64,000 nucleotides of DNA from Kondoa subrosea. Its lineage: Eukaryota. Shown here piece after piece: positions 9,068 through 64,000 of the stretch. The notes under the pieces are model-generated. The model was not told the DNA's origin. It saw only the letters and a program-made list of their open reading frames with translations, and ran no database searches. A program made the translations under genes and the position numbers. Location of the stretch: positions 507,528 through 571,527 of the forward strand of contig BCIN01000008.1 of assembly GCA_039545335.1 (NCBI GenBank). The letters are read 5' to 3'. Each line of letters begins with the position of its first letter. Positions within the stretch are counted from its first letter, which is position 1.

Positions 9068-10462
9068 TCACTTTGCTGCTGCGATTGTCATATCTGAAAG
9101 ACGAGCGAATCGCTTGACATTGTCAGCCTCTTCTAGTACACCTGATGTGACGCAGGAGAAAGTAATGTCACGTTCCGGATCGATCCACACTACGAGACGA
9201 TATGCCTTTGAGTAAAGGATAGAGATAGTGATGAAGAGATGACATACTGAGTGTACTTCCAGCTCCGTAATTACCAAAAGTACGAGGACTGGTCAAAGAA
9301 CCAAAGAATGTTGGATGAGTGCCGGTTCCAGATAGAGCAAAACCAAGACCGAGATTGGCTGGTGGTATTTGCCAATTCTTCATCACAGAAATGCGAGCAT
9401 ACAGATTGTTTGGAGATGTACCGGTTGTTAGAGTAGTCGCCAGATCAATCATGGCTGGTGAAAGAATCCGCTTGCCGTCCAATTCGCCCTTTCTTCGAAG
9501 CATTTCTGCAAAGCGAGAAATATCACGAGCTGTGCTGACGCCTCCGACCCAAGGCATCTCTAAGTAGCAGGATTCAGATCTAAATTGCGCCTATATGCAA
9601 GGAAGGAAACTCACCAGCTCCTTCAATAACAATTTCTTGCATGACTTCCAGATCTCTTCCAGTGAACCATCCTCCAGGCTGAATGAAGAGTAAGTGACGG
9701 AAGAAGTCGATAACGTAAGAGCGGATACTCACTTTGAAGTTTGCCACGATCGGCACCATGCGATCCTTGAACTCTGCAGGAGCACCGATTCGTGTAGATG
9801 TCATGCCCAAAGGCTCGAAGATCTCTCTGTTGACTAATTCTGTGTAAGATTTCGCGCCAGTCGCTCTTCGAACCATTTCTCCCATCAATGCGTGGTTCAA
9901 AGTAGGACTGTAGTCGACCTCTCCGCCTAGAGAAATAGCAAAGAATGAGGTTATGGCGCGAATTATGTTGCGGTTTCAGCGTACCAGGTGTGCCAATTAC
10001 ATCCATCTTACAGATAGCCTTGATGACATTGCTCAAGTTGCCGAGCTCTTCGTAAGGCAGAGGTGTGGGTGTATTTGAGAGACCGGCACGGTGCGAAAGA
10101 AGATGGACAAGACTGATTTGCTCCTTCTTCGCCTGTCTGAAGCGGTCTTCGCCAATGAATTCTGGAATCCAATCAACAACGCGATCCATAAATGACATTT
10201 GACCACGTTCGACAGCTTGAAGCACAAGAGTATGAGTGAAGGCTTTTGTAAGAGAGAAGAGCCAGTAGACATCGTCAGGAGCCGTCTTGCGTTGGCTCTC
10301 CCTGTGAGCATAGCCTAGCGAAACATCCATGGCAACCTTTCCTCCTCTTGATACCACCAAGTTGGCTCCATCGTAAAGACCATCCTTGATATCCTTTTCT
10401 ATAGACGCTTGAAGACGCTTGAGTGCAGCAGCATCAAATCCAGTATGGGTCTCGTCGATCAT
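9068..10462 (-). CDS. Serine hydrolase, beta-lactamase/EstB-like family (copy 1)
   Basis: SxxK motif FSLTK, LLSHRAGL, Tyr motif DYSP, EIFEPLGM, and FGNYGAGSTLMWIDPERD after splicing. Confidence 0.93.
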
Positions 10463-10739
10463 GATAACTATTTCCGCCAAATCAGAAACGAGCCACTTCG
10501 CTGCCAGTGCACGCACCTCGTAATTGGTATGATAGGTTGAGGTAGCGTTAATGTAATAGACTATACTGGCCGTGAGCTCGCAGGACAATGCCAGCTTCTC
10601 CGCCGACCCCTCACATAACGCTTAAGAGTAATCACGGAATGCGACCGAGACGCGTGTAACCCCGCATGTTGCGGCATCGGTAATTATTGTAAACTTGTAC
10701 GAATCCTTTGCAGCCTCACAGAGAAGTTCACAATACTAG
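10463..10739. promoter_or_regulatory. Divergent promoter hydrolase/SDR-A with GTGTAACCCCGC (SYGGRG-type site) at 10654-10665
   Basis: 277-bp head-to-head gap. The motif is the reverse complement of GCGGGGTTACAC at 14339-14350, and its core is conserved in copy 2. Confidence 0.6.
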
Positions 10740-12045
10740 ATGGTTGAACACGATACTTTCGTCAATGGCTTTGCGGATGGGCAAAAGAAGAACACGCCTG
10801 GCGATGAAGCTCAATTGCGTGGGGATGTCTATGATCTCATGTAAATGCGTCGTATTGCAGGTCTCTACAGATCATGTACTAACCTGTTCTCGTTCAGCGA
10901 TCCTTTGCAATTTAAGGGCAAATGGACAAATCGAGTTGTTTGCATTACTGGATCAGCTGGAACCATAGGAACTGCAATCAGCAAGGCGTTTGCAGTAACT
11001 GGAGCCAAGTTGGCGTTATGTGATATGCGAGAAGACGATTTGAAACCAACTGTTGAAGCTTGTCGAAGTAACGGTGCAAGCCAAATCCTGACTTCAAGAT
11101 GCGATCAGACCAAGTTCGAGGACTGCAAGGCGTTCGTGGAAAAGGTTGAATCAGAGCTCGGGCCAATTCACACTTTTGTCAACTGCGCTGGTATCAGTCA
11201 TGCTGCTTTGGTGCGTGATTATGCAGCAGCAATATTTTGTCTGTATTGATGCTTTTGTGCTATAGTTTCGCGATGGGGAAGTGAAAGACTTTGAGCGTAT
11301 TATGGCCATCAACTTCAATGGCCCCATGGTTTGTTCTTCCGCTAGTCTTGATCTTATTCGAGCTGACGTTGAGCATAAAGTATTTCAACTCTTTGATCCA
11401 ACCTCTATTCCACAAACGTAAAGAAGGCTACTCAATCAATCTTGCTTCTCGATCCGGAACCATCGATTATCCTTTTACAGTTGCGTACAACGTCAGCAAA
11501 TGTGCAGTGATCCGTATGGTCGGTTGTATTCAGGAAGAAATCGACAAGAATGAAGGCATGGAGAACAACTTCTGTATCGCGCTGCATCCCGGAGGGGTAG
11601 TTTCAAATATGTCTCAGCAAAAAGGTCAAAAGGAGCCAACGAGTTTATTGAAGGCTCATCCGGAGCAGAGGGACTTTATGAGTCATGCCATTGTATGTCA
11701 GCAAAGATCTTCTCTGACATTGTCTGATTGCGTCTCTTGATAGAAACACTTCAAGACTTCGGCAAATGTATGCGCTTCTACTTGCGTCTTCTTATCCAGC
11801 GGAGCTACCAATGACTTCTTGGTTAGTTGCTTTACACAATATGATGTCGTCAAGCTGATTTTCATGAACAGAGAGGGCGATATCTGGATGTGGAAGAAGA
11901 TCTTGGCGATTTGATGAGACAGAAGGACATCATTCTCAAGAACGATCTTTACAAGCTGACAGTAGACTTCGTTGGAGGTCGTCCGAATGATGGAGGAATG
12001 TATTTGAGGGATCACCAGCCTGCTTTCAAGAGCAAGTTTGCTTGA
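10740..12045 (+). CDS. Short-chain dehydrogenase/reductase SDR-A (copy 1)
   Basis: ITGSAGTIG Rossmann motif, Asp at the end of beta2 (ALCD), VNCAG, catalytic YNVSK and LHPGGV. Ends KSKFA*. Confidence 0.92.
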
Positions 12046-12893
12046 GATGCATTTCGAGATTTGGGTAGGGTTCAAACATTGTATGATCAGCCTCATGAAG
12101 TGAACAGAACGATCCAGTCTGTTGCTACATATTTCCTGAATTTGAGAGTATAACGAGCGCAGCATAAGAGCAGAGATCCAAGACAATTAAAGAAGTCCAT
12201 TTGCAAAGAGAGCTCGCGAATCAGTCACTCAAGACACAGAACAGGCGTAGGTCCTGGAAGAATCACAGAAAATACAACGCGTCTGACAGAGTACTCTTTT
12301 TGCACGGCACGCAGGAGCAGAAGCCCAATTCGACAGCATATTCATTCACGTTGACTTCTAGTTTCGTTCAAGTCAGCAACATTGGGTCATAGCGCGACAG
12401 GGTAGCGTCCATCTTGGCAGGTATCTTGAGCCTGGTATGCTTGCTGAAGCTCGTGGCCAGGAGTAAGCCTGTTTAGAAAATGTGATTGAATCTCATCTGC
12501 ACACAACGCCTCGAGATTGCTGCTTTTATCTCCTCTGCCTGATCTGACCTTCTCTTGGTTGACTATGCTTTGCTCTGAGGCTCTCAACGAGTGAGTGTCA
12601 AGTTGGATTCTTGGAGATTACTACATATATCGCTCGCCTTCAGGGTCAATGAAGGAGCTCGGTACCGATCCAGCAATTAGTCTGTACTTCCTATGTGGTT
12701 ATTCGTGAGATAAGATGCAATCAACGGCCTGCAATCGCATTATGATGTTCTGCGTCGAGCCTTTGTCTCGCATAGATACTGCCGAACACCAGCTGGCGTT
12801 GCTGAATAAGGTTGAGCAGCTTCTCTCAATATCAGGAATTCATACAGAGAAGAGTACATTGTGTCATTTAAATACCGCTATAATGTAGTACAT

Positions 12894-14165
12894 TCAAGTA
12901 CTATCAAAGTTCCATACGTCAGCTGCAACGTCTGGTCTAATCTTTGTGAGGGTAGACATGAATTCTCCCATCCAGATCTTCTGATTAGTATCCATCCAGT
13001 CTTCGATTTCAAAGATCCGATTATCGCCAACGATGCAGCCATTTCCTGTGATAATCCTCATTCAGCGTGTCAGATCCAAAGTATAGACAGCAAGACTCAC
13101 CGTTGTACTTCTTTTCCGTGCTGAATACAGCAGCAGCTCGAGCTAAAGCTATTGGCGGCTGGATCGGTATCCCTTTACAAGCCTGTTCTACTGCTGGCGT
13201 AACAAGACCAGTCCTGTTATAGGTGGTGCGAAGATCAATAATCTTTTCTGAAAGGTGAAGCGGTCACGCACCTGGTCATATATGGACAAATCAAGTTGAT
13301 TCGAGCGTTGAATTCCGCAGCTTTGATATGACTTGCGCGCATTAAGCCCAGGAGCTGCCATGGAGGTGAGCAAGAAGATAAACTATCAGGATAGCGAACT
13401 CACACCATGCTTGGCTGCGCAATAGGTGTATAATCCAGGTGTACCGCGGTAAGAAGCCAACGAGCCTATCATACTAATCTCTCCGCCTTGAGGACTTTGC
13501 TTGCGGAAGTAATGGAATGCAAGTTTGACTGTCTTGATTGTACCGGTGAGATCAATGTCGATCTACAATGGATAAGAAGAGATGACATGAGCTAAGAAGA
13601 GGTTCATGGAAGAGATTCTTGACGTACAATTGCAGACTTTGGCGGAAGTAGTTTTCCGTTCGCGTCAACATCATCCCTACAGTGTAGAATTGAGTAACTC
13701 GATAAGCAGACGATAGTTCGAAGTATTGAGCTCACTTAAAAATGTCATAGGGTTCTCCAATTCCTGCACAAGCGCTATCTCCCCATATCAGCCTGTGACC
13801 AACGAGCTGAGCACAGAAGCAAACCTACACCACAGTATCCACGCGACCGTACTTGCTGACAGCAACTTCGAACATTTCTACTTGCTGATCCCAATTTGTT
13901 ATATCGCATTTGGAGAATGTAATGTTAGGACCTTCTTCGCCGATCGTGTTCTTCAAGTCTCCCCAAACAACCTTTGCACCTCCTCTAGCATAATATTCAA
14001 CGCAAGCTCTGTTCAAACAGAATTCGTTTGGATGCATGAGCCTTTGTCTGGTCACTGTGGTGCATTACCTCACCTGCCGATACCGCTATTACCTCCAGTG
14101 ATGATGACTACCTTGTCTTTAAGCTGAGGAAGCAGTTCTTCGTCCTTGAAGGTGATTTCGGACAT
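12894..14165 (-). CDS. Short-chain dehydrogenase/reductase SDR-B, 15-PGDH-like (copy 1)
   Basis: MSEITFKDEELLPQLKDKVVIITGGNSGIG, KCDITNW and catalytic YCAAK. Ends DVWNFDST*. Confidence 0.9.
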
Positions 14166-14440
14166 TTCGATCTTTTGCTATAATGGTGTCTTGCTATCCT
14201 GCTATTACTGCAATGTTCGGCAATTACAGATGCTTCCTCGAACAGATCCTATTTACCAAGAGATTCATGCATTCCCCACTTATAAGGGTCTTAACCGATT
14301 CTTCACCGAAGCCCCGGAATAACAGTTGCGAAAGATTCGCGGGGTTACACTCTTGTCGAGCTGATCGGTCTGGCCCCTAAATCCTGCTCTTGCTTCTTCC
14401 CTTCAGACGCTCACTCTAATTAGTATTCTACTCTATTACT
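14166..14440. promoter_or_regulatory. Divergent promoter SDR-B/MFS with GCGGGGTTACAC at 14339-14350
   Basis: 275-bp head-to-head gap containing the same 12-mer as the other promoter of this copy. Confidence 0.6.
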
Positions 14441-17400
14441 ATGGGATTCGGAGTGAAAGAAACAGCGTTGGTGTCACCATGTATCGGTATAGCTTGCACT
14501 ACTGACTTATTGTCTGCAGAGATCCTCATGTCCCAGGGACTGCCTTGTAGGGTCTTTGGGCCTGAGATGTGAATGGTTTTCTCATCCATCTTTCCAGGTT
14601 GGACGATCTCCACAAAGCAGAACATGGTGAGATCCTAGCCTGTCCTGCTTGCATGCACGATTTGACTATCTCTGATAGCCGATGTCAAGCATGAACAGCT
14701 CAAGATGGGCACAGGCAGATTTTCCCACATTGTTTGTATGTCATCTATTATCTCAAGTAACGTAGGTTCGCTGATGGTCGACGCAAGTGGTACCACAACC
14801 TACCGATGATCCTAACGAGTACGCTGCTCTTTCCCTCTATAATCCAGTATCATAGCTGAAGACTTGTATAGTCCATTGAACTGGCCAACGTGGAAAAAAG
14901 AAACTATGTTCTGGTGAGTTATGCCTTGTGCAATTGTCTCCTCTCTTTTGACCTAAGCTTCTAGGACCTCTATGTTTGTGGTACGAGCCTTACTTTGCTG
15001 TTTTTTGGTTATTGCTCAAATGTCTTTAGGCTGGTCTGGCTGGAGGTGTGGGAGTGAGTCTGGCATCTAAGTGTCCGTTAAACGTTCTACTGACTTCAAT
15101 CACAGCCTATTCTGGCTTCTGGTTTCTTGCAAGTCTCTCAGGAATGGGGCGTAACCATCGATGGAATCGCTGGTGTATGCCCTTCTGCCATTTTCTTAGT
15201 GTCTTGAGACTGATTATATATTCCACAACAGGCTAATGGATACTGCATTCTCATGATTGGTATTTCAATGGGTTTTGCTGCGGTCTTTGGTCAGAAGTAT
15301 GGTCGTCGTCCAGTCATGCTTATGGCAGTTATTTTTATGATTGCTGGTGGCAGTAAGTGAAGTTTGCAGTTTTCTTTCCCGGTGCTAAATACGCCTTGCA
15401 CAGTCTGGGCTCCGCTTAGTGGTGGTCATCTCAATTCATGGATCGGATCTCGCGTCCTTCAAGGTCTTGGTATCGCTCCTTTTGAAGCTCTCATTACCAA
15501 CCAGGTCAACGACATCTTTTTCGTTCATCAACGTGGCTTCCGTATCACCATATGGTCTTTCGTCATTCAAGCAGGAGTTGTTTGCGCTCCACTAGTGAAT
15601 GGTTACATTATCGAGTCCCCGTCACTAGGGTGGACTTGGTGCTATTGGATAGTCAGTGGGCGAGATTTGCAATGTTTTCGTGCTGATTGCTCTCTATAGA
15701 TGGACATTTTCCTCGTGATTGGGCTCGTTTTGGTCTTGTAAGATCATTTCATGGCAAAGAAAGGCCTGTTTGACTAACAAGCTATCAAACAGCCTCTTCA
15801 TGCCCGAGACAAAGTATCTGGTATGTAAGCATCAGTGAGCCATATTCATTCTGACGGCGCTCTACTCGGCAGCGACCGGAGAAACTTCGCAATGACAATG
15901 GATCTGTCGGCACTGACATTGTTACTGCTGCTGATATGGAACTCAAATCGACTGAAGATCAGAAAGCCACCGGAATGGAAACGGTTGGACATCTTGAAAA
16001 ACGCATCACGTCTGCGTCTTCATATGGCCCAAGAAAGTCTTTCGTTCAAGAGCTCAGACCTTGGTCCGGGTGAGTCAAGGAGAAGTACTGCTGCATAAGG
16101 ATAGTCTGAATGTGTTTATTACAGCTTTGTCAACCCAAAGAGCATTGGATCTATCGCATGGTCCATCGTGTCCGTCCTTGTTAGCCAAGGCCAATTCTTC
16201 AACTGACTCATTAACTCAATATAGTCCCATGTGTCTTTCACCCGTTGTTCTCACCACCTTCTCTATTCTCGCTTTCGGCCAGTGCTGGTCTGTAGTGTTG
16301 TCAACAGTCTCCTGTATGTCATTTCCCTACAGGCTGACAATGGTATTGACATCTTTAGCAGCGGTCATCTTTGCGAAGCCGCCCCTTCTCTTCAACGCTA
16401 CTCAGACAGGACTGATGAATATTGCACCTCTCATCGGTAGGTCTATCGTCTAGTCTGTCGATAAGATATCTGAGCATTCTCTCGACAGGTTTTATCGCCG
16501 CAGTCGCCGTTGCAGGTCCTTTGATTGATTAGTGCGTGATTTCGCCTTACCAATATCTGACTGACAAGATCACCTCATATAGCTTCACGGTGTATGCTGC
16601 TCGCAGAAATTCTGGCGTGTTCGAGCCCGAGTAATTACTCTCGTATGTATAGCTTGCATCAACTCATGTTACTTCTACTCCAGATTCCGGCTTTTGCTGA
16701 TTTTGCCGGGTGGTGTGATTTGCGTGGCTGCTTATGCTGGTCAGTCATATCCTGTGTCTCGTTTGCTCTGTTCTGAGGAAGATCCTCTAGGTTGGGCTGG
16801 ATTTACATCCACGAATTATGTCAGCAAACTTCGTGAGTATAACGTAATCCTGAGCTAACATACTCTGTAGAGCTCTTGGGTTGGGCCAGCATTGTATGTC
16901 TCGCTCATTGTATCTTGGCTCACTCTAACCTCTGGGTTCCAGCTTCTTTGGATTGATCAATTGTCAGTATAAGCACCTTTAGTATTTGCAATACTCTAAC
17001 AAATGATGGCTATAGTCGGATCGGGTCTATTCTTTACCGCCATGTGAGCCTGTAATCTTTGGGCTCGTAGCTTTTTGCTTACCCTAACTTGCAGTGTTGT
17101 CTATATCAATGAGGTATACTTTCTATTCTCTTTGTCAAGCTTCAATAAATTGAACCTGCGTGCGCCTTGATAGGTCCACAGAGATTGCGGTCCCGAAGGT
17201 AAGTAGAGGACTGATACCATCCAAGTTTGAGCTGATTCTGTGTCCAGCCTTTGCCGCCGTCAACCTCTGCAAAGGTGTATTGATCTATGGCTTTGTTCAA
17301 TTCGTCGGTGGATGGGTGTTCAGCAATACGTGGGTGTCGTTCTTCATGCGATTGACCTTTCTCATCCAATTTATTCTACAGTACAACTTACATTATGTCA

Positions 17401-17630
17401 GTACTTTGCGGGGTTCAGCTTGCCACACTTCTATTCGCTATCGTGAGCACTACTCTTTCCGAAAATGATGTATATCATGCTAACAGAATCTATAGCCCAT
17501 GTATAGGTACGTTGATGATCGGACTCTAACCTGACATTATTCTGTGCTCAATGCCGTTACTGTTGACAGATATGGCAAAGTCTGCAGAGCTTGGATGGCA
17601 AAACATCCTCATCTCTTTGCCACTCGCTAA
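14441..17630 (+). CDS. MFS transporter, DHA1/HOL1-like (copy 1)
   Basis: MGFGVKE...DPHVPGT, VPQPTDDPNDPLNWPTWKKE, FGQKYGRRPV, DIFFVHQRG, FMPET and NSGVFEPE motifs. Ends HPHLFATR*. Highly intron-rich. Confidence 0.9.
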
Positions 17631-20786: not shown

Positions 20787-21654
20787 ACTTGTATAAGCGC
20801 TGTTTGAGAAGAAGGGGAAAGAAAGAAAATTTCAAATTTAGAGAGTCTCCACAATTTAGAAAAGGGGAGCTAAGTGGACGACCGGGGTTGCGTCACGCGG
20901 AAGCTAAAGTGTCCCTGGTCGATCATATCAAAACGAAGTCTCCTACAGAGACCGGCACGTCCTAACCTTCGGACGAGATAGACCTCGAGCTTGCATCCCT
21001 TTAGATTAGCTCAAGGTTAGAAGCTTAGAGTTCTCGTCAATTGGCCAGACAGAAAGAGCAGAATCCATGACGTCTGCTGCAGTGATGACACTTGTCAGAG
21101 GTTGCGCAAAGCCTTTTGCGAAATAGCAATTTGGCTTGGCGGATTGGAGGAGTGGAGAACGACATGATGAGAGGCAAAGACACGACAGTTCACTGCGCAG
21201 ACTCCTGTATGAACGAGAGTAGTCGATGTGCTTGATGAGAGGAAGCAGGTCTATTGTACTCGTGAATCGAGATGTCGCATTGTGTAATATCGAACTTATG
21301 CAACAGTGGGTCTTGTGAAAGAGAGTACTTTGATATTGGTTGTGAGGTCGAGGAAGAAGAACGACGACCCAATAGTGCATCTGACAGGCCTGACGAGGAC
21401 ATTGATGATGATTCGCAAGCCGGAGCACAGCGCTAGATTACGTAATCGGGGATTTCGAAAATTGCGTGTGTGCTGGAGCCTAAGCCGAGTGGATGAGCGT
21501 TCGTCGCTATAGAGTGGCTTCAGGCAGCAGGTGCAGCATTGACGGCGCTTTTGACGAAGCTAGAGCACGCACGCCCTCGCGCTTTGAGCACAAGCTCGGT
21601 TTTTCTTTGCAAACTTCCATTCAGCGTCATCAAGCTTGGCTACTTTACACCAAC

Positions 21655-29964: not shown

Positions 29965-30215
29965 TTGTGTATGACCAGGCGAAGGATATAATCCAGCTCA
30001 AAGGATCAGAGGTATATGACCGCAAGGTGTTGTTTGGCTGTCACAGGAAGAGAGCGACGTTTTCCGAGACAGATGAAATCTAGCATATATCACAAGTACA
30101 GGAAGTGTCACTTATGCTATTGCGAGAGCGCAGGATGCTTCAACATGAGGAGAAGCAAGAAGTCTCGACATGCGAAGTCCTTCCCCTTGCAATAGTAGGC
30201 AATAAGCAGACGATG

Positions 30216-30958
30216 TCATTCATACGGGTTGGTATGAACAGAATGAGTTGGCGCATGATGCATATCGTGAGCCTCTTCGGGATGCGGACGTTTTAGGCCA
30301 TGCTGAGATCGGGAATTGGCTTCATGATGGTGCACTTCTTGTTGAACACGGTAGTGATCCTGAGCGCTGACGATACCATGACCCGGATAGTTGTACACTG
30401 AATTGGGAACTCAGTGAGATAAAGCTTCCCAGATGAAGAGCTATAACGCAAAAAACCTACTCTTGACACCATAATTTCGATATCGATCTTCGTAAGCCAT
30501 TCTTGGAATCGCGTGACCTAGCATCGCTATCTCAACATATTAGCCTTGTACTGAAGAATGAGGCCATTGAGACTCACTGGCATGCTTAGAATGTCTACCT
30601 TCGAACCTATCATCAGAAGATGGTATCTTCGCCCAGAATGGACTAACACTTGATATCTACCACAGAATCGAATCAGAATGCAACGATCAACCTCGCATCG
30701 AGAAGACACCTACCTCCAAATAATCGCCAGAAAAATCAGACCAATCGTAGCTCCGACAGTAGCCAGACCAGCCTGCAGATTTCATAAGCTTGCTGTATAT
30801 GGAACCCATGAAATACTTACTGTAGCTCCAGCTGAGAGAGGTTTGACTCTGTAAGCTCCTCCATAGGGCTGAACGCTGACTAGGTCTCGCCTTCTCTCAA
30901 CGAAGGCCTGAGTTGAGCTTATACAGCAGAGCAGTAGGGTAAGTGGTAGAAAGTACAT
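30216..30958 (-). CDS. Small type-I membrane protein (signal peptide, RR site, TM helix, His-rich tail), paralog 1
   Basis: Six exons including 9-nt (30648-30656) and 17-nt (30578-30594) microexons. The reading frame is confirmed by the paralog at 32505-33256. Confidence 0.75.
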
Positions 30959-32504
30959 AGAGCACTGTATCTCTAAGTCTTTTACGGAATTGATCGTTCA
31001 AGCGGATCGGACGGTTAGGGAAAGTAATGAATCGAGCGCAAGAAGCTGATCCCTTTGTTCTGACGGAATTAACCAATAGTGGAATTTCTCCAAGAAATAG
31101 CAGACCTCAGAGAGCTACTCAAAACAGATTTCGAAGAGCTTTGATGAAATATTTTCGCACGATTGATCTTTCGGAGCATATCGATGAGATCAATTCACAG
31201 ACCGGAACGAGAGACAGACTTGCCATCACGCACCGTTTGCGACTCTTTATGCTAGAATCTTACGTAAGACATATCGGAGTAGTCGAAAGTACGGAAGCAC
31301 GAGCCAAAGTCGTTTCAGAATGAGCGAGTCATGTCCGGCATTCGCGCGACTCATGCTAAGCAACTCCTCTAAGGTTTAGCTATCCCTGCCACCATCTTGC
31401 CTGATACGAGCTAGTTGAGGAAGCAGGTCGAAAACCAGGTCTTGCTAGGTGTATTGCCGAAACAAAGAACCACAGGAGCAACATAATTTCGAGACAAGCA
31501 ATTTGCACAGAAAGGAGAAGTCTAGCATATAGCATACAATCACAAGAGTGCCGGTCACTTCTCTGATCGTGCGGGTACAATCTCCAATATGGGATGAGGG
31601 AGATGATCAGAGACAGCTCGAAGGTGAGGTTGTATCCTCTTGACGAAGTACCGAGTCATTTCATCGCTCGAGTCTGGGTAGCCGTCACCGAAGTTTCTGT
31701 CCATTTCAACCCAGCTCTGGAGATTCTACCTCAGATATGGATTTCTTCTCTGTTCAAAGAAACACTGACAGCTGGTTCCTTTTGCCAGACCTGATCATGG
31801 TATAGGTGTAACTATCTGGATGATATATCTCAGAAGAAGCTCTCCCTTTCCGAGCTATTCGACACACAGCGAGATCATATTCCGCAAAACAGAATCCTGC
31901 GCTTGTCGCGGAACAAACTCTTGCAATAGTGAAAGCATTCTAGCTTCTATGCTAGCTACATTCGGCTGAAATATGAAAGACAATCAGTAATGATTCTCCA
32001 AGTACCTTCCGCGCAAAGATAAACGCTCACATGCGAAATTCCAAAGTGCCCAATATCAACAGACCCACTGTTCTCCTGTATTATTTGTGGGGACCATACA
32101 GGTCCTTGATGCTTATTGCTATGCTGTTCCCGCCATTGAATCCTCACAGGTTTTTGACCTTCGGCGAAAGTTGCATTGGGCAAATATCTGGTGCAATACC
32201 CTTGCTCATCGTGGTGGTCCAAATCAGGTGAGCCACCCAGATATTCACTTTGTAGCCTGGTCTATATCCCGTCTTTCAGCCAATATTCCCACTCATATTG
32301 AACACTGAACATAAACTGACGTTGTAGTTCCACAAAGCCTGATTACGCAAGAATAGAGCTTCATGGGATCTTGCCGCAGACTCCTCGTGCCTAGCAGCAG
32401 CTTTGCCGAGTTGTGATGACAGCATACTACGCGTTACAAACTGCTGTTTTCCTCTGGATCGGTAGATCAGACTCCGGTCGACCGGAAAGCAGACAACAAC
32501 ACTC

Positions 32505-33256
32505 TTACGGGAGAGAATGGACAGGCTGAGCTGATGCGTGATGTGAATCCCGAGCCATATCTGATTGCGGAGGCTTCGGGGCACGCTGGGATCGGAGATC
32601 GGCATGATATCGCGCTTCTTGCTGAATACGGTAGTGATCCTGAGCGCTGACGATGCCATGACCCGGATAGTTGTACACTGTGTTGGGATGACAATTAAAT
32701 AGAGTTTTGGACGGAACTGACAACGCAAAAACTTACTCTTGACACCATAATTTCGATATCTATCTTCGTAAGCCATTCTTGGAATTGCATGACCTAGTCG
32801 AGCTATCTCAACATATCAGCTTTCTACTATGAATGAAGCCATCGGGACTTGCTAGCATGTTTAGAATGCCTACATTCGAATCATTCATCAGAGTTGGAAT
32901 CTCCCCCAGAATTAGACTAACACCTGGTATCTACAAGTGAGACTCATCAGTAAGTCGCAATATACCAGATGCTAATCAAAGCTGGCCTCCAGATAATGGC
33001 GAGGAAAATCAGACCAATGGTAGCTCCAGCGGTTGCTAGACCAGCCTTTCCAGCGATAAGATAAGCTTAGCATTCTGAATACGATCAACTGGCTTACAGT
33101 GGCTCCCGCTGACAAAGGTTTGACTCTGTAGGCTCCTCTATAAGGTTGAACGCTGACTAGGTCTCGCCTCTGCACCTTAGCGGCCTGACTTGAACCTATA
33201 TAGCAGAGCAGCAGAATGCAGATTCGAGAGCACATTGAAGTCGCTGCCATGAACAT
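32505..33256 (-). CDS. Small type-I membrane protein, tandem paralog 2
   Basis: Shares RRDLVSVQPY.GAYRVKPLSAGAT, GATIGLIFLAIIWRYQV and AIPRMAYEDRYRNYGVKMYNYPGHGIVSAQDHYR with paralog 1. The model needs two GC donors. Confidence 0.7.
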
Positions 33257-55950: not shown

Positions 55951-58900
55951 TTAACGGTTCGCAAAGAGTTGAGGATGTTTTGACATCCATAGCCGGACTC
56001 TCTTGCCGTAGATGTACATAGGCTGATCAGTTCGGGTCAGTTTCATGTAACTCCGCAGTCAACAAGACTCACAATGGCAAAGAGAAGTGTAGCTAGCTGC
56101 ACACCGCAAAGTACAGACATGATGTATGTTGTGCTGGTCGGAGCATAGAGTCAGTAAGAACTGATGCCGTGCTGAAGGAGAGGAAGATATACGTATTACT
56201 TTGTACCCATCCGCCCACAAATTGGACAAAGCCATAAATGAGAACACCTTTCGAAAGATTGACAGCGGCGAAAGCTATGATCGGTCACATGTAAGCCAAG
56301 TCACAATAATTGATGAATCGTGAGAGTTTACCTTCAGGTCCACAATCTCGGTGCACCTATGCATATACACAATGAGCAACATGTCAGATTGGCAACTTGC
56401 GAAAATCCATACCTCATTGATATATACAACGCTGGAAGTAAGCTTCAGCAAGTAACTCTCTTCATAGAGGAGGAAAGACCAACATCGCGCTGCAGAAGAG
56501 ACCAGATCCGACTATTTGTAGAGTGATTGTGACCGTGAGAATAGCGAAGTGCAAGAGGTCTGCACTCACAATTGATAATTGATAGCATGAATACAGGTCC
56601 GACCCAAGTGGTCTATGGATTTGCGTCAGCTATTGTCCAACAGATATTGGTATTTCAATAGGTTGCTTACATAATTTGTGGCCGTGAGACCAGCCCATCC
56701 TAATATCTATTGCTTGAGCGCAGAGTAAAGCTTATCTCAAGAACGCAGAACTGACCAGCATAGGCAGCCACAGTAGCAAAGCCTCCTGGAAGGATCATCA
56801 ATAATCGGAACCTGTGAAGGAACAAGGTTCTATAAGACGGAGCGACCACAGCAACAAACACTGACTCAGGCTCAAAAGTCCCCTTATTTCTACGCGACGC
56901 AAACAAGGTGACGTAGTCGATAAGAGGTCCAGCAACAGCGACCGAGATTATCAGACCTGGCCAGCAAGCGATAAGTCGCTAGCTACAAGGTCTTGATCGG
57001 CAACGTACCGATGAGAGGCCCGATATTGGTCAATCCAGTCTGCGTGGCGTTGAATCCGAGTGGAGGTTTAGCAAAAATGACAGCTACAAGGCATGTTAGC
57101 CTTCGACCATTGGAACATCAAAACCTTACAAGCGACTGTTCCAAGGACGACAGTCCAGCATTGGCCTGCAATTGAAATTAGCGAGCAGAATCTGCAATTG
57201 TAGAAGAGACTCCTTACCAAATGCGAGAATAGAGAAAGTGGTCAGTACAACTGGTGATAAGCACATAGGACTGGTGTACAGACATAGTCAGTGTAGTATG
57301 TTAAAGACTGATACCTGACGGACACGATGCTCCATGCGATGTTTGTAATGCTTCTCGGATTGACATAGCTATGTAATAGGGCATTAGTCTTTCTTTCGAC
57401 ATAAGCTGACGCTCTGACTGACCCAGACCACGGTTTGAGGTCCTGCAGGAAACTCTTCCTTGGGCCGTATTCTATGGCTGTCGGGGTACGCTTCTCAAGG
57501 TGTCCAACCATTTCTATGCTCTCCTCTTTGTGTTCTCTGCTGGACTTGAGATCGCCTTCATGCGATAAAGGTTCCGTCGCAAGAGCGCCGTTATCAATTT
57601 GATATCGTTCAGCTCGCTGCAAGAAATCCTTGTGAAATCGTCTTTGGCCAATCTAGCTGATTGCTCACAACATATTTTGTTTCAGGCATGCAGAAGACTG
57701 CTCTACGATTTGAGCGAAGGGAGGATGATCCCATATAACGGTGACGTACAAACCAAGATCAGTCCAACACCGAGAGCTATGTCCATCTAAGATCGACCGG
57801 TTGATCAGAGGCTGTAGGCTGCAGGTAGATTGGCAGGAGCAGACATACAAACCAGTAACAGTATTCCCAACCAAGCGAAGGTTTCGATATGATGTACCCA
57901 TTCACAAGCGGCGCAGCAACAACTCCTCCGTGGACAGCGAAATTCTGTCAGTACTCATGTATGAGCCCAGGCAAAACGGCAAATAAATACAGGCCTCACC
58001 CATACAGTGATCCTAAAACCACGCTGATGGACAAAGAATATGTCTGAAAGGGCAGAATTAGTGAATGAATCTCATAGGCAATCAATGTACACACCATTAA
58101 TCTGATTAGTGACGAGAGCTTCGAAGCTGAGGTCCGTATGAGCTTCGACAGAGTATCATACACGACTAAGACATACGGTGCGATGCCTAGAATGTGGAGA
58201 GATAAGTTATAGCCTAAATCAGAACTAGGTGATTCACCTAATCCTTGAATAACGCGAGATCCGATCCACGAGTTGACGTTTTCAGCACACAAAGGTGCCC
58301 AAATGCCACCGGCAATCATCAGAATCACGCCAGCTAGCATGACTGGACGTCGACCATATTTCTGACCGAAGATTGCGGACAGACCCATTGATACGCCGAT
58401 CCTGAATACGAGACGCAGTATGGGTAAGAGGAGATTGCCAAAGATAAATAGAGATACATGAGAATGCAATAACCGTTACCACCTAGCCAAAGTTAGACGG
58501 AGACTATCAATCACTGAGCAATGCATACCAGCGATATCATTGATGGTGACACCCCATTCTCTAGAAATCTGAAGAAACCCAGAGGAAAGAATCGGCTGAT
58601 TATACCAGGATCAGCAGAGCGCCTGCTATATCGACGCAGCTGGCTCACTCCCACTCCGCCTGCCAGTCCACACTGACAAGAGTTTCAGTAGATGCTGTTA
58701 TATGTAGACTAATGTGCCACATACAACATACATAGAGACCCAGAACAGAAGTTCTTTCTTCCAAGTGGGCCAATTCAATGGACTGAGGCATCACAATGTT
58801 AAAACTAGTCCTGTTTCAACGGAAGGACAAGCTAACTCGTTGGGGTCATCGCTTGGTTGAGGAACCTTTGGTCATGCATAGCATCAGCAATGACAGGTCT

Positions 58901-59206
58901 TTCCTTGAGGATTACACTGACCAGAACAACATGCGAAAATTTCCCTTGCCCCATTTTGAGTTGCTCGTGATTGATATCACCTTATATTCAGAATTAGAGG
59001 GATTTCATGAGGAAGGAGGGAACTAACGATGTTCATTCTTGTGTAGATCATCCAAACTACAAGCAATCAGGCCGTGTCCTGTGCCACACGAGCAGGACAG
59101 CGTACAGAGAAGTCCCTGGGACATGAGGATCCCTAGAGCCCAGTTTAGCTCAACCAATTCTCAAAGTGAAATACACTGACTTGGTTTCTTTGACACCGAA
59201 GCCCAT
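55951..59206 (-). CDS. MFS transporter, DHA1/HOL1-like (copy 2)
   Basis: MGFGVKET, DPHVPGT, PLNWPTWKKE, FGQKYGRRPV and NKGTFEPE. Ends KHPQLFANR*. Confidence 0.9.
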
Positions 59207-59556
59207 TCTTGCGCTAGCTGAATCAAAGTAACAATGAGTAGGTTTGTCGGAAGAGAATCAGAGCCAAGCATGTCCCGCGCATCTCCACCACAATCCCCGG
59301 GAAGAGCTTTATCAGAGGGGTGCCGCCCGCAGGAAGCATGCCGAGAGATGCCGCGGAATGACCCTCCCAAGAAGTGAATGCATCAAAAAGAGCATTCAAT
59401 GCGGACAAGAAGGCAAGGCGGAAAGTATGAGCATTTTGAAACGGAGACTACCAGCCGGATTGAATTATGAAGAGACCTCTTCGAGTCCTTGAGAAGGCAG
59501 TCGCGAAACGTAACAATGCGACAAATGCACGCGCATGGCGCTTCCAGCAGAATTGA

Positions 59557-59566
59557 TATATAAAAG
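59557..59566 (+). promoter_or_regulatory. TATA box upstream of SDR-B copy 2
   Basis: TATATAAAAG about 50 nt upstream of the ATG at 59616. Confidence 0.5.
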
Positions 59567-59615
59567 CCCAGCTTTGCTCTTATCTAGCTTGCTTTCTCAC
59601 AAACTCGCAATAAAG

Positions 59616-60793
59616 ATGTCTGAAATCAAGTTTAACGATGAAGCACTCCTGCCTCAGCTGAAGGAAAAGGTAGTCGTCATCACTGGTGGTAACAGCGGTA
59701 TTGGAAGGTGAGATGATTCATTGTAGCGTAGATTGACAAAGACTAATGCGAAACAGAGCTTGCGTGGAATATTATGCTTCGGGAGGTGCACAGGTCGTTT
59801 GGGGAGACTTGAAGAACACGATCGGCGAAGAAGGTCCCAACATCACCTATGCGAAGTGCGATATCACAAGTTGGGCAGATCAAGTAGCAATGTTCAAGCT
59901 TGCTGTAAAAAAATATGGACGGGTAGGCTCTGTGATGTGAGAACTTCCTCATATATGATAGTCGTAGCTGATGAGATAGACAGCGCTTGTGCAGGAATTG
60001 GCGAGGCCTATGATATTTTCAAGTCAGTTTAAACATACTTACTTTTTGCACTCCACTCACGTCACGTTTGAAAGAGATGAACTTGACGCGAATGGAGAAC
60101 TTCTTCCACCGAACGATACAATCATTCACATCGATCTTTTGGGAACGATAAAGACAGTCAAACTAGCTCTTCATCATTTCCGCCAGCAAAGCCCTCAAGG
60201 TGGAGAAATCAGCATGGTGGGATCAGTAGCTTCATATCGAGGCTCTCCAGGACTTTACAGCTACAGCGCAGCGAAACACGGCGTGAGCTTTCATTAATGA
60301 TCTTCTTCATGTCTCTGCTCACATCACATAATAGCTCCTGGGCTTATTACGAGCGACATACACCAACGCTGCAGCATTCAATGCCAGAATCAATTTGATC
60401 TGTCCGTACATTACTCGGTATGTCCGGTCTTCGAATGGCTTTGAAGCTGCTAACTTTGACATCGAAACAAAGATCCGGTATGGTGACGCCAGCAGTAGAA
60501 CAAGCTTGCAAAGGTATCCCAATCCAATCACCAATCGCCTGCGCCCGAGCTGCTGCTGTTTTCACCACCGAGCAAAAGTATAATGGTGATTGTCTCAAAC
60601 CATTGGCTTTCGGTTTGCAAACTGAAGTTGACTTGCAGGGAACGGATGCGTTGTTGGAGATAACCGAATCTTTGAGATGGAAGAATGGTTGAACAGAAAT
60701 GACAAGGAATGGCTGGGAGAGTTTACATCTTCGCTAATCAAGATGACACCACAGGTTCAAGATGAATTCTGGAGTTTGGATAGTACAAAGTAG
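59616..60793 (+). CDS. SDR-B (copy 2)
   Basis: MSEIKFNDEALLPQLKEKVVVITGGNSGIG and YSAAKHG. Ends FWSLDSTK*. Confidence 0.9.
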
Positions 60794-61563
60794 CCGAACA
60801 GTATTGAGACAGAATACAATCCATCCCTTTTCAACGTGTTGTTCGTTGTGTTCTCTCGACTACGCTCTCCTTCGTCGTTACCTATGTAAGACAGTTGCGG
60901 ACACTTCAGACTTCGAACGCAGCACAGAGACTTGCGTGCATGTAAGCATGAGACCGAGCTGTTCGAACGACCTTGCGACCAGACAATCTCCCGCAATCCG
61001 ACTTGACATTCATCCATTGAGAGCCACGCAGTAAAGCACAGTCAGCCAAGATAAGATCTGAGAAAAGCAGAGGAGATGAAAGCAGCAATCTCGAGGCGTT
61101 GTGTGCAGATGAGATTCGACCACATTTTCTAAACAGGCTTACTCCTGGCCACGAGCTTCAGCAGCATACCAGATCAAAGATACCTGCCAAGATGGAAGGG
61201 AACTTGTCTCACCAGGATCCAAATGCTGCTACACTTGAGCGAAACTAGAAATCAACGTGAATGCATATGCTGTCGAATCGTACCTCTGCTCATCCGTGCT
61301 GTGCAAAAATACTACCCAATCAGACGCGTTGTATTTTCTGTGATTCTTCCAGGACCTACGCCTGTTCTGTGTCCTGGGTGACTGATTCGCGAGCTCTCTT
61401 TGATAATGGACTTCTTCAATTGTCTTGGATCTCTGCTCTTATGCTGCGCTCGTTATACTCTCAGATTCAGGACATATGTAGCAACAGACTGGATGCATTC
61501 TGTTCACTTGATGAGGCCGATCATACAATGTTATCACCCTATCCAAATCCCGAAAGAAACCTC

Positions 61564-62866
61564 TCAAGCAAACTTGCTCTTGAAAGCAGGCTGGTGATCC
61601 CTCAGATACATTCCTCCATCGTTCGGACGACCTCCAACGAAGTCTACTGTCAGCTTGTATAGATCATTCTTGAGAATGATGTCCTTCTGTCTCATCAAAT
61701 CGCCAAGATCTTCTTCCACATCCAGATATCGCCCCCTCTGTTCATGACAATCAGCTTGACGATAATATATTACGCAAAGCAACTGACCAAGAAATCATTG
61801 GTAGCACCGCTCGCGAGATATACGCAAGTGAAAGCGCATACATCCGCTGTAGTTTTAAAGTGGTCCTGCAATGGATAGAATTCGTCAACAGGCATGCATG
61901 TAGCGATATCTTTCGACTCACCTTAGCATGACTTGCGAATTTCCTTTGTTCTGGATGAGCTTCGAACAGTCTGGTTGGCTCTTTTCGTCCTGTCGCTTGC
62001 GACATATTGGATATAACGCCTCCAGGATGCAGTGCGATACAGAAGTTGTTCTCCATGCCTTCGTTTTTATCAATCTCTTCTTGAATGCAACCGACCATGC
62101 GGATTACTGCACATTTGCTAACATTGTATGCGACCGAGAAAGGATAGTCGATTGTTCCGGATCGAGAAGCAAGATTGATCGAGTAGCCTTCTTTGCGCTT
62201 GTGGAAGAGCGGTTGAATCAATGAGTTGAAGTACTGTAAGCTGCCGAATCAGGTCTGACAATTCAACACCGCTGATTGGACGCACCATAGGACCATTGAA
62301 GTTGATCGCCATTATACGCTCAAAACCCTCTATGTCACCATCCCGGAACTGACGGATGCAGACTTAATAATGGGCGAGAGAAATGCGTCGAAACTTACCA
62401 GACCTCTGCCACTGATTCCTGCGCAACATACGAAGGTGTGAATTGGTCCTAGCTCAGCTTCAACCTTATCCACAAAGGCTTTGCAATCTTCGAACTTGGT
62501 TTGATCGCAACTGGAAGTCAGAACTTGACCAGAACCATTACTTCGACAAGCTTCCGCAGTTGGCTTCAAATCATCTTCTCGCATATCGCAAATAGCTAGC
62601 TTGGCTCCAGTGACTGCAAATGCTCTGCTGATTGCTCCTCCAATGGTTCCTGCTGCACCAGTTACGCAAATAACTCGATTCTTCCATTGACCCCTGAATT
62701 GCATTGGATCTCTGTGAAGACCATCTCAGTTTGCGAATCATCCAGATGATATTGTCCCAATTTACATCAGATCATAGGCCTCTCCGCGCAATTGAGCTTC
62801 CTCTCCAGGCGTGTTCTTCTTCTGTCCATTTGCAAAGCCATTTACGAAAACATCGTGTTCGACCAT
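61564..62866 (-). CDS. SDR-A (copy 2)
   Basis: VTGAAGTIG, YNVSK and LHPGGV. Ends KSKFA*. Confidence 0.92.
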
Positions 62867-63174
62867 CTTGTGCGTTATTCAGACTGATTATCGAGCGTCA
62901 AGCAACATCCAAAGGAGCTCAAGTTCAATGCAACTTGAATGAAATGCGGGGTAAATTGTTACGCCGGTGCCGCGCTTTCTCCGGGTTTTTGCAATTCAGC
63001 ATAAGGCTTAACTGAGGGGAGCGGTATTCGGCAGCAGCTTGCTTATGGCTTTGCTTTGATTCTATTCAGTCAACACTATTCTCTATTGCATCAGCAAAAT
63101 CAGATATCGCGAGTTCTGCTTTTGTTGATAACTTGATGCCTCTGAGCTTGCCCTGATCGCTCGTATAGGCTGAA
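62867..63174. promoter_or_regulatory. Divergent promoter SDR-A/hydrolase copy 2 with ATGCGGGGT at 62944-62952
   Basis: The motif has the same relative orientation and a similar distance from the SDR-A ATG as in copy 1, while its flanks are diverged. Confidence 0.55.
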
Positions 63175-64000
63175 ATGATTGACGAAACCCACACTGGATT
63201 TGACACTGCTGCGCTGAAGCGTCTGCAAGCTTCTATTGAAAACGATGTCAAGAATGGTCTTTACGATGGAGCTAATCTGGTAGTATCGAGGGGAGGAAAG
63301 GTTGCAATGGACGTGTCAATTGGCTTCGCAAATCGAGAGACCAAGCGTTCAAGTGCTCCAGAGGACGTCTACTGGCTCTTCTCTCTTACTAAAGCTTTCA
63401 CTCATACACTTGTGCTACAAGCGTAAGTCAACTTGGTAGTCAGACCGCTCCCTCTGCTGATGCGCTGCTCCGCTTCTTTAGTGTCGAGCGCGGTCAAATG
63501 TCATTCACGGACCGAGTTGTCGACTGGATACCAGAATTCATTGGCGAAGACCGCTTTAGACAGGCGAAGAAGGAGCAAATCAATCTTGTGCATCTCCTTT
63601 CTCACCGCGCCGGTCTTGTAAATACACCTACTCCTTTGCCTTACGAAGAGCTCGGCAACCTGAGCAATGTCATCAAGGCTATCTGCCAGATGGATGTAGT
63701 CGGAACTCCTGGTATGCATGAGCTCAGCATACTCTAGATCATACTAATGGTCTCGGTCTCGGAAATCTCTAGGCGGAGAAGTCGAATACTCGCCAACGTG
63801 GTGAGTTTACCTTACATTTTCTGCGCAATATAGTTCTGAATCATGTAAAGTAATCACGCTTTGATGGGAGAAATGGTAAGAAGAGCGACTGGCGCCAAAT
63901 CTTTCACAGAGCTAGTCAACAGAGAGATCTTCGAGCCTTTGGGCATGACATCTACACGGATGGGTGCTCCTGCCGAGTTCAAAGATCGCATGGTCCCAAT
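63175..64000 (+). CDS. Serine hydrolase, beta-lactamase family (copy 2; truncated by window end)
   Basis: MIDETHTGFDTAALKRLQ, FSLTK, LLSHRAGL and EIFEPLGM. Introns at 63423-63481, 63712-63772 and 63801-63850. Confidence 0.92.

What the first reader, a model, noticed from the sequence alone, without database searches (positions are those of the whole stretch)
57945..58457. Run of adjacent introns in MFS copy 2 is precisely absent from copy 1
Seen: copy 2 has introns at 57945-57999, 58044-58094, 58127-58176 and 58187-58237, while the homologous sequence in copy 1 is one uninterrupted exon (15403-15650). A fifth intron (58402-58457) is also missing from copy 1. Established: precise loss of neighbouring introns together is the expected signature of recombination with a reverse-transcribed mRNA. 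Inference: a cDNA-mediated conversion event occurred in copy 1. Oddly, copy 1 has its own intron (15353-15402) between these lost positions, which copy 2 lacks.
Basis: partly seen in the sequence, partly recalled or inferred. Interest (0 to 1): 0.7.

Follow-up and report, generated by a model that had tools for sequence, protein, structure and literature searches.

The report
Intron turnover between duplicated fungal transporters
Two copies of a fungal transporter gene differ cleanly at 11 of 35 intron sites, in both directions, and three more introns have shifted by 1-2 bases; a run of four was probably removed together by a known RNA-copy route, but which copy changed could not be proved.

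Summary
The five copy-2 introns are at the stated coordinates and are precisely absent from copy 1 (copy-1 intron and exon limits are off by one base). The two MFS genes (29 and 30 introns, 76% amino-acid identity) share 21 sites exactly. Six are in copy 2 only, five in copy 1 only, and three are shifted by 1-2 nt. Three neighbouring duplicated genes differ at 3 of 18 sites. The run is unlikely under independent losses (p 0.001-0.011) or independent gains (0.003-0.007), so a concerted loss in copy 1 through a reverse-transcribed mRNA, as described in Cryptococcus, is the best reading (about 0.6). Polarity is not shown: no intron-bearing ortholog was found, two in-genome paralogs share none of the 11 sites, and gain is clearly active in this genome. 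No RNA run was listed, so all junctions are predicted. The more surprising result is the pace: roughly 50 times the Cryptococcus rate, with 3 shifts among 39 retained introns against none in 28,256. The scan had noted twin introns and a 16-nt shift on other DNA of this genome, not this case.

The parts
14441..17630 (+). MFS transporter copy 1, 30 exons, 29 introns, 555 aa (predicted)
   Evidence: manual model reproduced by spliced alignment; MFS_1 on the largest exon E 4e-11
55951..59206 (-). MFS transporter copy 2, 31 exons, 30 introns, 554 aa, 423 of 555 residues identical to copy 1
57945..57999 (-). copy-2-only intron, codon 199 phase 0 (copy-1 numbering)
58044..58094 (-). copy-2-only intron, 184.1
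58127..58176 (-). copy-2-only intron, 173.2; 1 nt from an intron (174.0) of the C1 paralog, at chance level
58177..58186 (-). 10-nt microexon of copy 2
58187..58237 (-). copy-2-only intron, 170.1 (51 nt, no in-frame stop)
58402..58457 (-). copy-2-only intron, 115.2
15404..15651 (+). 248-nt exon of copy 1 that spans the four adjacent copy-2 intron sites
15353..15403 (+). copy-1-only intron, 148.1
14914..14964 (+). copy-1-only intron, 71.2
16532..16582 (+). copy-1-only intron, 402.2
16894..16942 (+). copy-1-only intron, 454.2
17507..17569 (+). copy-1-only intron, 536.2
14736..14787 (+). shifted intron 47.1; partner is 58866-58921 (-) at 48.0, 2 nt apart
58866..58921 (-). shifted intron 48.0 of copy 2
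15175..15231 (+). shifted intron 108.0; partner 58483-58528 (-) at 107.1, 2 nt apart; the C7 paralog has 107.1, so copy 1 moved
58483..58528 (-). shifted intron 107.1 of copy 2
15738..15792 (+). shifted intron 243.2; partner 57698-57749 (-) at 243.1, 1 nt apart
57698..57749 (-). shifted intron 243.1 of copy 2
9069..17630 (.). first copy of the inverted four-gene block (beta-lactamase-family hydrolase, two short-chain dehydrogenases, MFS)
55951..64000 (.). second copy of the block; runs about 690 bases past the window end
13563..13627 (-). intron only in the first copy of dehydrogenase 1
63423..63481 (+). intron only in the second copy of the beta-lactamase-family gene
63801..63850 (+). second intron only in the second copy of the beta-lactamase-family gene

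Best explanation
After an old inverted duplication of a four-gene block, both MFS copies kept changing their introns. The four adjacent sites (codons 170-199, 86 nt of mRNA) were most likely emptied in copy 1 in one step: its own spliced mRNA was reverse-transcribed and a short internal piece of the cDNA converted the gene, with ends in the exon sequence on either side. The fifth site (115.2) either went in the same step, with intron 148.1 gained later, or was lost separately. The other single differences are a mix of gains and losses, and three introns moved by 1-2 nt. Shown: positions, precision, clustering, two-way differences, shifts (all as predicted junctions). Inferred: direction, single event, cDNA template.
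For: Precise absence with no gap at any junction. Clustering: run of at least 5 among 6 of 30 p=0.001; at least 4 among 6 of 35 p=0.008; uniform gain of at least 5 of 6 into one exon p=0.003. The same region holds 4 and 8 introns in the C7 and C1 paralogs, so it is not a zone that rejects introns; an ancestor with none there would have had a 371-nt exon (p=0.06). The C1 paralog has a 480-nt intron-free stretch (p=0.002) where its relatives carry several introns, a second possible tract loss. None of the 11 discordant introns resembles another intron of the three genes or its flanking exons; the search of the five-intron stretch matched only the two copies. Recent twin-intron gains are scarce (2 in 303,674 bases), about one or fewer expected in this pair (my arithmetic). 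Internal adjacent losses are documented in Cryptococcus (PMC2395259 section 9).
Against: No outgroup carries any of the 11 sites exactly (0 of 11 in two in-genome paralogs and in the 23 metagenome loci kept of 70). Gain is strong in this lineage: the C7 and C1 paralogs share 3 and 0 exact sites with the pair, and a 64%-identical sugar-porter pair shares 0 of 17 and 20. The independent-site model gives 0.24-0.39 for 'ancestral' per intron. The tract is internal, about 1.07 kb from the stop, with 19 downstream introns kept, not the simple 3'-end pattern. Even orthologous introns of the two copies have nearly lost all likeness (mean score 21.5 against 17.9), so old copying events would be invisible. 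No reverse transcriptase was tested here.
Confidence: 0.6

Rival explanations
1. Clustered gains in copy 2: the ancestor had a long exon (codons 108-230) and copy 2 filled it with five new introns, perhaps by local copying of one intron to nearby sites, while copy 1 gained one.
For: Per-intron probability of gain 0.61-0.76 under the independent-site model; paralogs have almost disjoint intron sets; local twin introns exist in this genome, 8 and 9 nt apart; 170.1 and 173.2 are 10 nt apart.
Against: Uniform gain gives this clustering with p 0.003-0.007; the five introns are no more alike than random pairs (scores 15-30, background mean 18, sd 6); twin rate predicts about one gain or fewer (and arithmetic).
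Confidence: 0.25
2. Independent single losses and gains, or exact genomic deletions during break repair, that happen to cluster.
For: Turnover is high across the block (14 of 53 sites), and the other discordant introns are all singletons.
Against: Run probabilities 0.001-0.011; no shared short repeat at the two ends of these introns is evident in the junction print-out.
Confidence: 0.1
3. Gene conversion between the two copies, or from a cDNA of copy 2, moved or removed introns.
For: Conversion between the two blocks has happened nearby: last exon of dehydrogenase 2 differs at 1 of 21 fourfold sites against 49 of 93 upstream.
Against: No raised identity in the MFS tract: 20 of 30 fourfold sites differ in codons 149-230 against 99 of 166 outside codons 108-230.
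Confidence: 0.04
4. The differences are gene-model artefacts.
For: No RNA evidence for these two genes; boundary shifts are often annotation errors (PMC5010894, passages).
Against: For all 17 tested introns the chosen junction was best or unique within 15 nt and no shifted pair can be put at one position; the same method's model of the C7 paralog matches an intron-free metagenome contig of a relative over 557 of 557 residues at 92%.
Confidence: 0.01

Closest known systems
mRNA-mediated loss of adjacent introns in Cryptococcus (Sharpton et al. 2008, PMC2395259; passages and section 9 read)
   Same: Precise loss of consecutive introns, internal to the gene, beyond independent-loss expectation, in an intron-rich basidiomycete.
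   Different: There polarity came from five genomes for 31 of 49 events, gains were not found and only 49 of 33,473 introns differed; here it is paralogs, 14 of 53 sites differ, both ways, and polarity is open.
Intron sliding and near intron pairs (Lehmann et al. 2010, PMC2891723; Roy 2009, PMC2740785; Rogozin et al. 2012, PMC3488318; passages read)
   Same: Introns 1-2 nt apart in homologous genes with no change in protein length.
   Different: Roy found no clear slide among 28,256 Cryptococcus introns (silent divergence about 0.46); the review puts 1-nt slides under 5% of introns and found no support for longer ones. Here 3 of 24 in one gene pair (3 of 39 in the block), two of them 2 nt, without cDNA proof.
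Same-gene duplications of introns in fungi (Collemare et al. 2013, PMC3609843; passages read)
   Same: The genome has such twins (C7 paralog of this family; one on C2).
   Different: None of the 11 discordant introns has a recognisable twin.
Rapid lineage-specific intron gain and loss in duplicated basidiomycete alpha-amylase genes (Da Lage et al. 2013, PMC3584928; passages read)
   Same: High gain and loss in multi-copy genes of a few basidiomycete lineages.
   Different: That study had many species and a dated transfer; here one genome.

Membership tests
cDNA-mediated concerted intron loss | Exact removal, exon sequence unchanged at the junctions | tested here: met
   no gap at any of the five junctions
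cDNA-mediated concerted intron loss | Adjacent introns missing together more often than independent events give | tested here: met
   p 0.001-0.011
cDNA-mediated concerted intron loss | Introns present in the ancestor (outgroup polarity) | tested here: inconclusive
   0 of 11 sites in paralogs too distant to inform; no ortholog found
cDNA-mediated concerted intron loss | No retained intron inside the tract | tested here: inconclusive
   met for the four-intron run; the five-intron version has 148.1 inside and needs a later gain
cDNA-mediated concerted intron loss | 3' bias of the simple poly-A-primed model | tested here: not met
   tract ends about 1.07 kb before the stop with 19 later introns kept; internal tracts are the majority in Cryptococcus, so this weighs little
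cDNA-mediated concerted intron loss | Active reverse transcriptase and a spliced transcript | not tested
   not examined here; an earlier unchecked note (e1-7522664) reports a retroelement with a spliced copy of its leader
Same-gene intron duplication (gain) | Near-identical sister intron in the same gene | tested here: not met
   of 3,741 intron pairs only the C7 twin stands out (z 6.6)
Introner-like elements | Many near-identical copies elsewhere in the genome | tested here: not met
   the 541-base stretch matched only the two copies; the other six discordant introns were not searched genome-wide, and sensitivity for 50-nt pieces is limited
Tandem exon duplication (gain) | Intron resembles the flanking exon | tested here: not met
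   0 of 11 discordant introns; 2 of 87 introns reached p<0.03
Intron sliding | Positions 1-2 nt apart, no indel, cannot be placed at one site, more than chance | tested here: met
   chance of three such pairs 0.0005
Intron sliding | The two introns are homologous in sequence | tested here: inconclusive
   scores 16-25, like unshifted orthologous introns and like background
Intron sliding | Junctions confirmed by transcripts | not testable with these tools
   no run was listed

The most novel reading that the evidence does not exclude
This basidiomycete lineage rewrites its introns tens of times faster than Cryptococcus, in balance between gain and loss, and one RNA-templated process does most of it: an mRNA is copied back with some introns missing, or put back a few bases off, and the cDNA converts the gene. 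Depending on the tract this gives a run of losses, a 1-2 nt shift, or a twin intron. On this reading the whole of codons 107-199 in copy 1 (six copy-2 sites gone, two new ones at 108.0 and 148.1) could be one event. It would make the origin of intron sliding directly testable in a living genus.
Probability: 0.15. Interest if true: 0.8.

Novelty: new member of a known kind. Interest (0 to 1): 0.4.

Why it matters
A run of lost introns is a known signature and adds little alone. What could matter is the setting. Intron structure in studied basidiomycete yeasts is nearly static, and sliding was not seen at all in Cryptococcus, yet four gene pairs here differ at 14 of 53 sites and three introns have shifted. 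If sister genomes confirm this, the genus is a rare place where loss, gain and sliding are frequent enough to be caught and polarised.

Tried and rejected
RNA-seq: no RNA holder was listed; this is no evidence either way, and no reads were laid. Word-based protein search with the copy-1 exon: 16 candidates, none significant. HMMER over 1.84 billion representatives: 559 hits, 150 listed, no close ortholog; the best full-length relatives are 43% identical. Metagenome scan: 70 loci, no ortholog of either copy; the best is an intron-free contig of the C7 ortholog; the single pattern used was biased to long exons. For position mapping I kept 23 of the 70 (GC below 0.58, score at least 230, at least one intron); their models are weak (25-47% identity to the reference). 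Excess of near pairs between distant paralogs: rejected; only one of 12 bins was raised (4-6 nt, p 0.006 uncorrected), so 173.2/174.0 and 454.0/454.1/454.2 are not used as evidence. Donor score, branch site, length and GC do not separate discordant from shared introns. A third copy of the hydrolase gene: none. Family searches for recent trios to polarise other cases gave only one more pair. Rfam on the high-identity tract: nothing. Five literature searches showed no report on this locus; they were not designed to prove absence.

Full report
Setting. The window holds an inverted duplication, about 9.1-17.6 kb against 55.9 kb to just past the window end, in an 18.9-Mb genome of 27 contigs. It carries four gene pairs: a beta-lactamase-family hydrolase (PF00144 on its closest hits), two short-chain dehydrogenases (one hit by PF00106, the other named from its sequence) and an MFS transporter. 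The nearest named relatives of the MFS are basidiomycete proteins (Rhodotorula, Phellopilus, Fomitiporia, Phenoliferia) at 37-43% identity, so the organism is probably a basidiomycete; I did not place it further.

The observation. The five copy-2 introns lie exactly where stated, and copy 1 is uninterrupted at all five sites with no gap in the codon alignment. Each junction is the best or only frame-keeping choice within 15 nt. All junctions are predictions: no RNA run was listed. The method has one outside check: my model of the C7 paralog aligns over 557 of 557 residues at 92% identity with an intron-free metagenome contig of a relative, presumably a transcript.

The whole gene. Copy 1 has 29 introns and copy 2 has 30, in about 1,665 coding bases. 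The proteins are 76% identical and fourfold sites differ at 126 of 213 (JC 1.17, interval 0.91-1.53). The neighbours show the same thing: 15 shared, one first-copy-only, two second-copy-only, no shifts, at JC 0.64-0.78. So 14 of 53 sites in the block are present in one copy only. By my arithmetic that is about 0.27 (MFS) and 0.24 (neighbours) per site per unit of silent divergence, against 0.0052 times dS in Cryptococcus (PMC2395259, passages): about 50-fold, with the caveat that these are paralogs, few genes and a different distance measure.

Is the run more than chance? Yes. A run of five among six losses from 30 introns has p 0.001; if intron 148.1 is old and breaks the run, four among six of 35 has p 0.008. 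Uniform gain puts five of six into one ancestral exon with p 0.003 and four of six within 86 nt with p 0.007. Some clustered process is needed in either direction.

Direction. I could not fix it. No ortholog of either copy turned up. Two in-genome paralogs, on C7 (28 introns) and C1 (27 introns), share 3 and 0 exact sites with the pair and none of the 11 discordant sites; near matches are at chance level. This disjointness argues that gain has been heavy, as does a sugar-porter pair at 64% identity that shares none of 17 and 20 introns. A two-state model on the protein tree gives each copy-2-only intron a 0.24-0.39 chance of being ancestral; it treats sites as independent and so ignores the run. 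On the side of loss: concerted internal loss is an established route (PMC2395259 section 9); the region is intron-rich in both paralogs (4 and 8 introns); the C1 paralog has its own 480-nt empty stretch (p 0.002); and the gain routes that leave a trace leave none here. No discordant intron resembles another intron or its flanks, and the five-intron stretch has no further match in the genome. Twin introns occur, but only 2 in 303,674 bases with 0 in a shuffled control; with a rough lower estimate of 430 introns in that sample this predicts about one such gain or fewer in this pair. That argument is weak for old events, since orthologous introns of the two copies are themselves almost unalignable. 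Weighing these is judgement: about 0.6 for one cDNA-mediated loss in copy 1, 0.25 for clustered gains in copy 2. Conversion from copy 2 or its cDNA is not supported, since silent divergence inside the tract is not lower.

The 'odd' intron. It is one of five scattered copy-1-only introns. Either it was gained after a five-intron loss, or it is old, copy 2 lost it, and 115.2 is a separate loss. The model leans to gain (0.6-0.75).

The shifts. None of the three pairs can be placed at a common site by any GT/GC-AG choice that keeps the frame, and three such near pairs by chance have p 0.0005. At 107.1/108.0 the C7 paralog sides with copy 2, so copy 1 moved; both introns begin with the same six bases, and the first two bases of the next exon now stand before the intron, where they form a second GT. 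That fits the two-step model with a tandem donor as intermediate (described in PMC2740785 and PMC2891723, passages), and it lies at the 5' edge of the emptied tract, which may be coincidence. Roy found no clear slide among 28,256 Cryptococcus introns; a review puts one-base slides under 5% of introns; a study in oomycetes warns that most apparent shifts are annotation errors, which is why transcript proof is needed.

Verdict. Real, and a new example of known processes. The notable part is the pace of turnover and the three shifts. For all eight papers I saw passages only (plus section 9 of PMC2395259); no supplements were opened, and the gene-level tables there could bear on how common runs of this size are.

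Noticed in passing
window 11790-12550 against about 61060-61810: A tract of 81-97% identity between the two blocks covering the last intron and exon of dehydrogenase 2 (1 of 21 fourfold sites differ, against 49 of 93 upstream) and about 550 nt of 3' non-coding DNA: probably ectopic gene conversion, or a conserved unknown element. No Rfam match.
   Followed up: partly
window 9190-9247 (-) against L007 499-556: The last intron of the beta-lactamase-family gene is far more alike between the copies (score 89) than the other three (19-31): a small conversion patch or a constrained intron.
   Followed up: partly
L006 4094-4143 and 4153-4203 (G000:C7): Twin introns, 38 of 51 identical, around a 9-nt exon in the C7 MFS paralog; the three residues are present in the relative's intron-free contig L025.
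   Followed up: partly
G000:C2 near 2084445 (L156): A second twin-intron candidate, 42 of 61 columns identical, around an 8-nt exon.
   Followed up: no
window about 17990-20790 (-) and L144 (G000:C1): Sugar-porter paralogs, 365 of 570 residues identical, with 17 and 20 introns in the aligned part and no shared position.
   Followed up: partly
L010 1601-2082 (G000:C1): A 480-nt intron-free stretch in an otherwise intron-dense MFS paralog (p 0.002), a candidate second multi-intron loss.
   Followed up: partly
window 30204-30937 and 32487-33214: Tandem gene pair on the minus strand, 75% identical DNA; no intron-sized gap seen in the alignment.
   Followed up: partly
window 14819-14871 and 58783-58836: Both copies have an intron at 57.2 and lack 59.2, which the C7 and C1 paralogs and four distant metagenome loci share; an old intron seems to have been replaced 6 nt upstream.
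   Followed up: no
L006 4955-5011 and L010 956-1011: One predicted GC-AG intron in each of the two distant paralogs.
   Followed up: no
window 9069-10462 (-) and 63175 onward: The beta-lactamase-family gene had only two hits among 545 candidates (89% and 59%, both unnamed environmental); a bacterial origin was not tested.
   Followed up: partly
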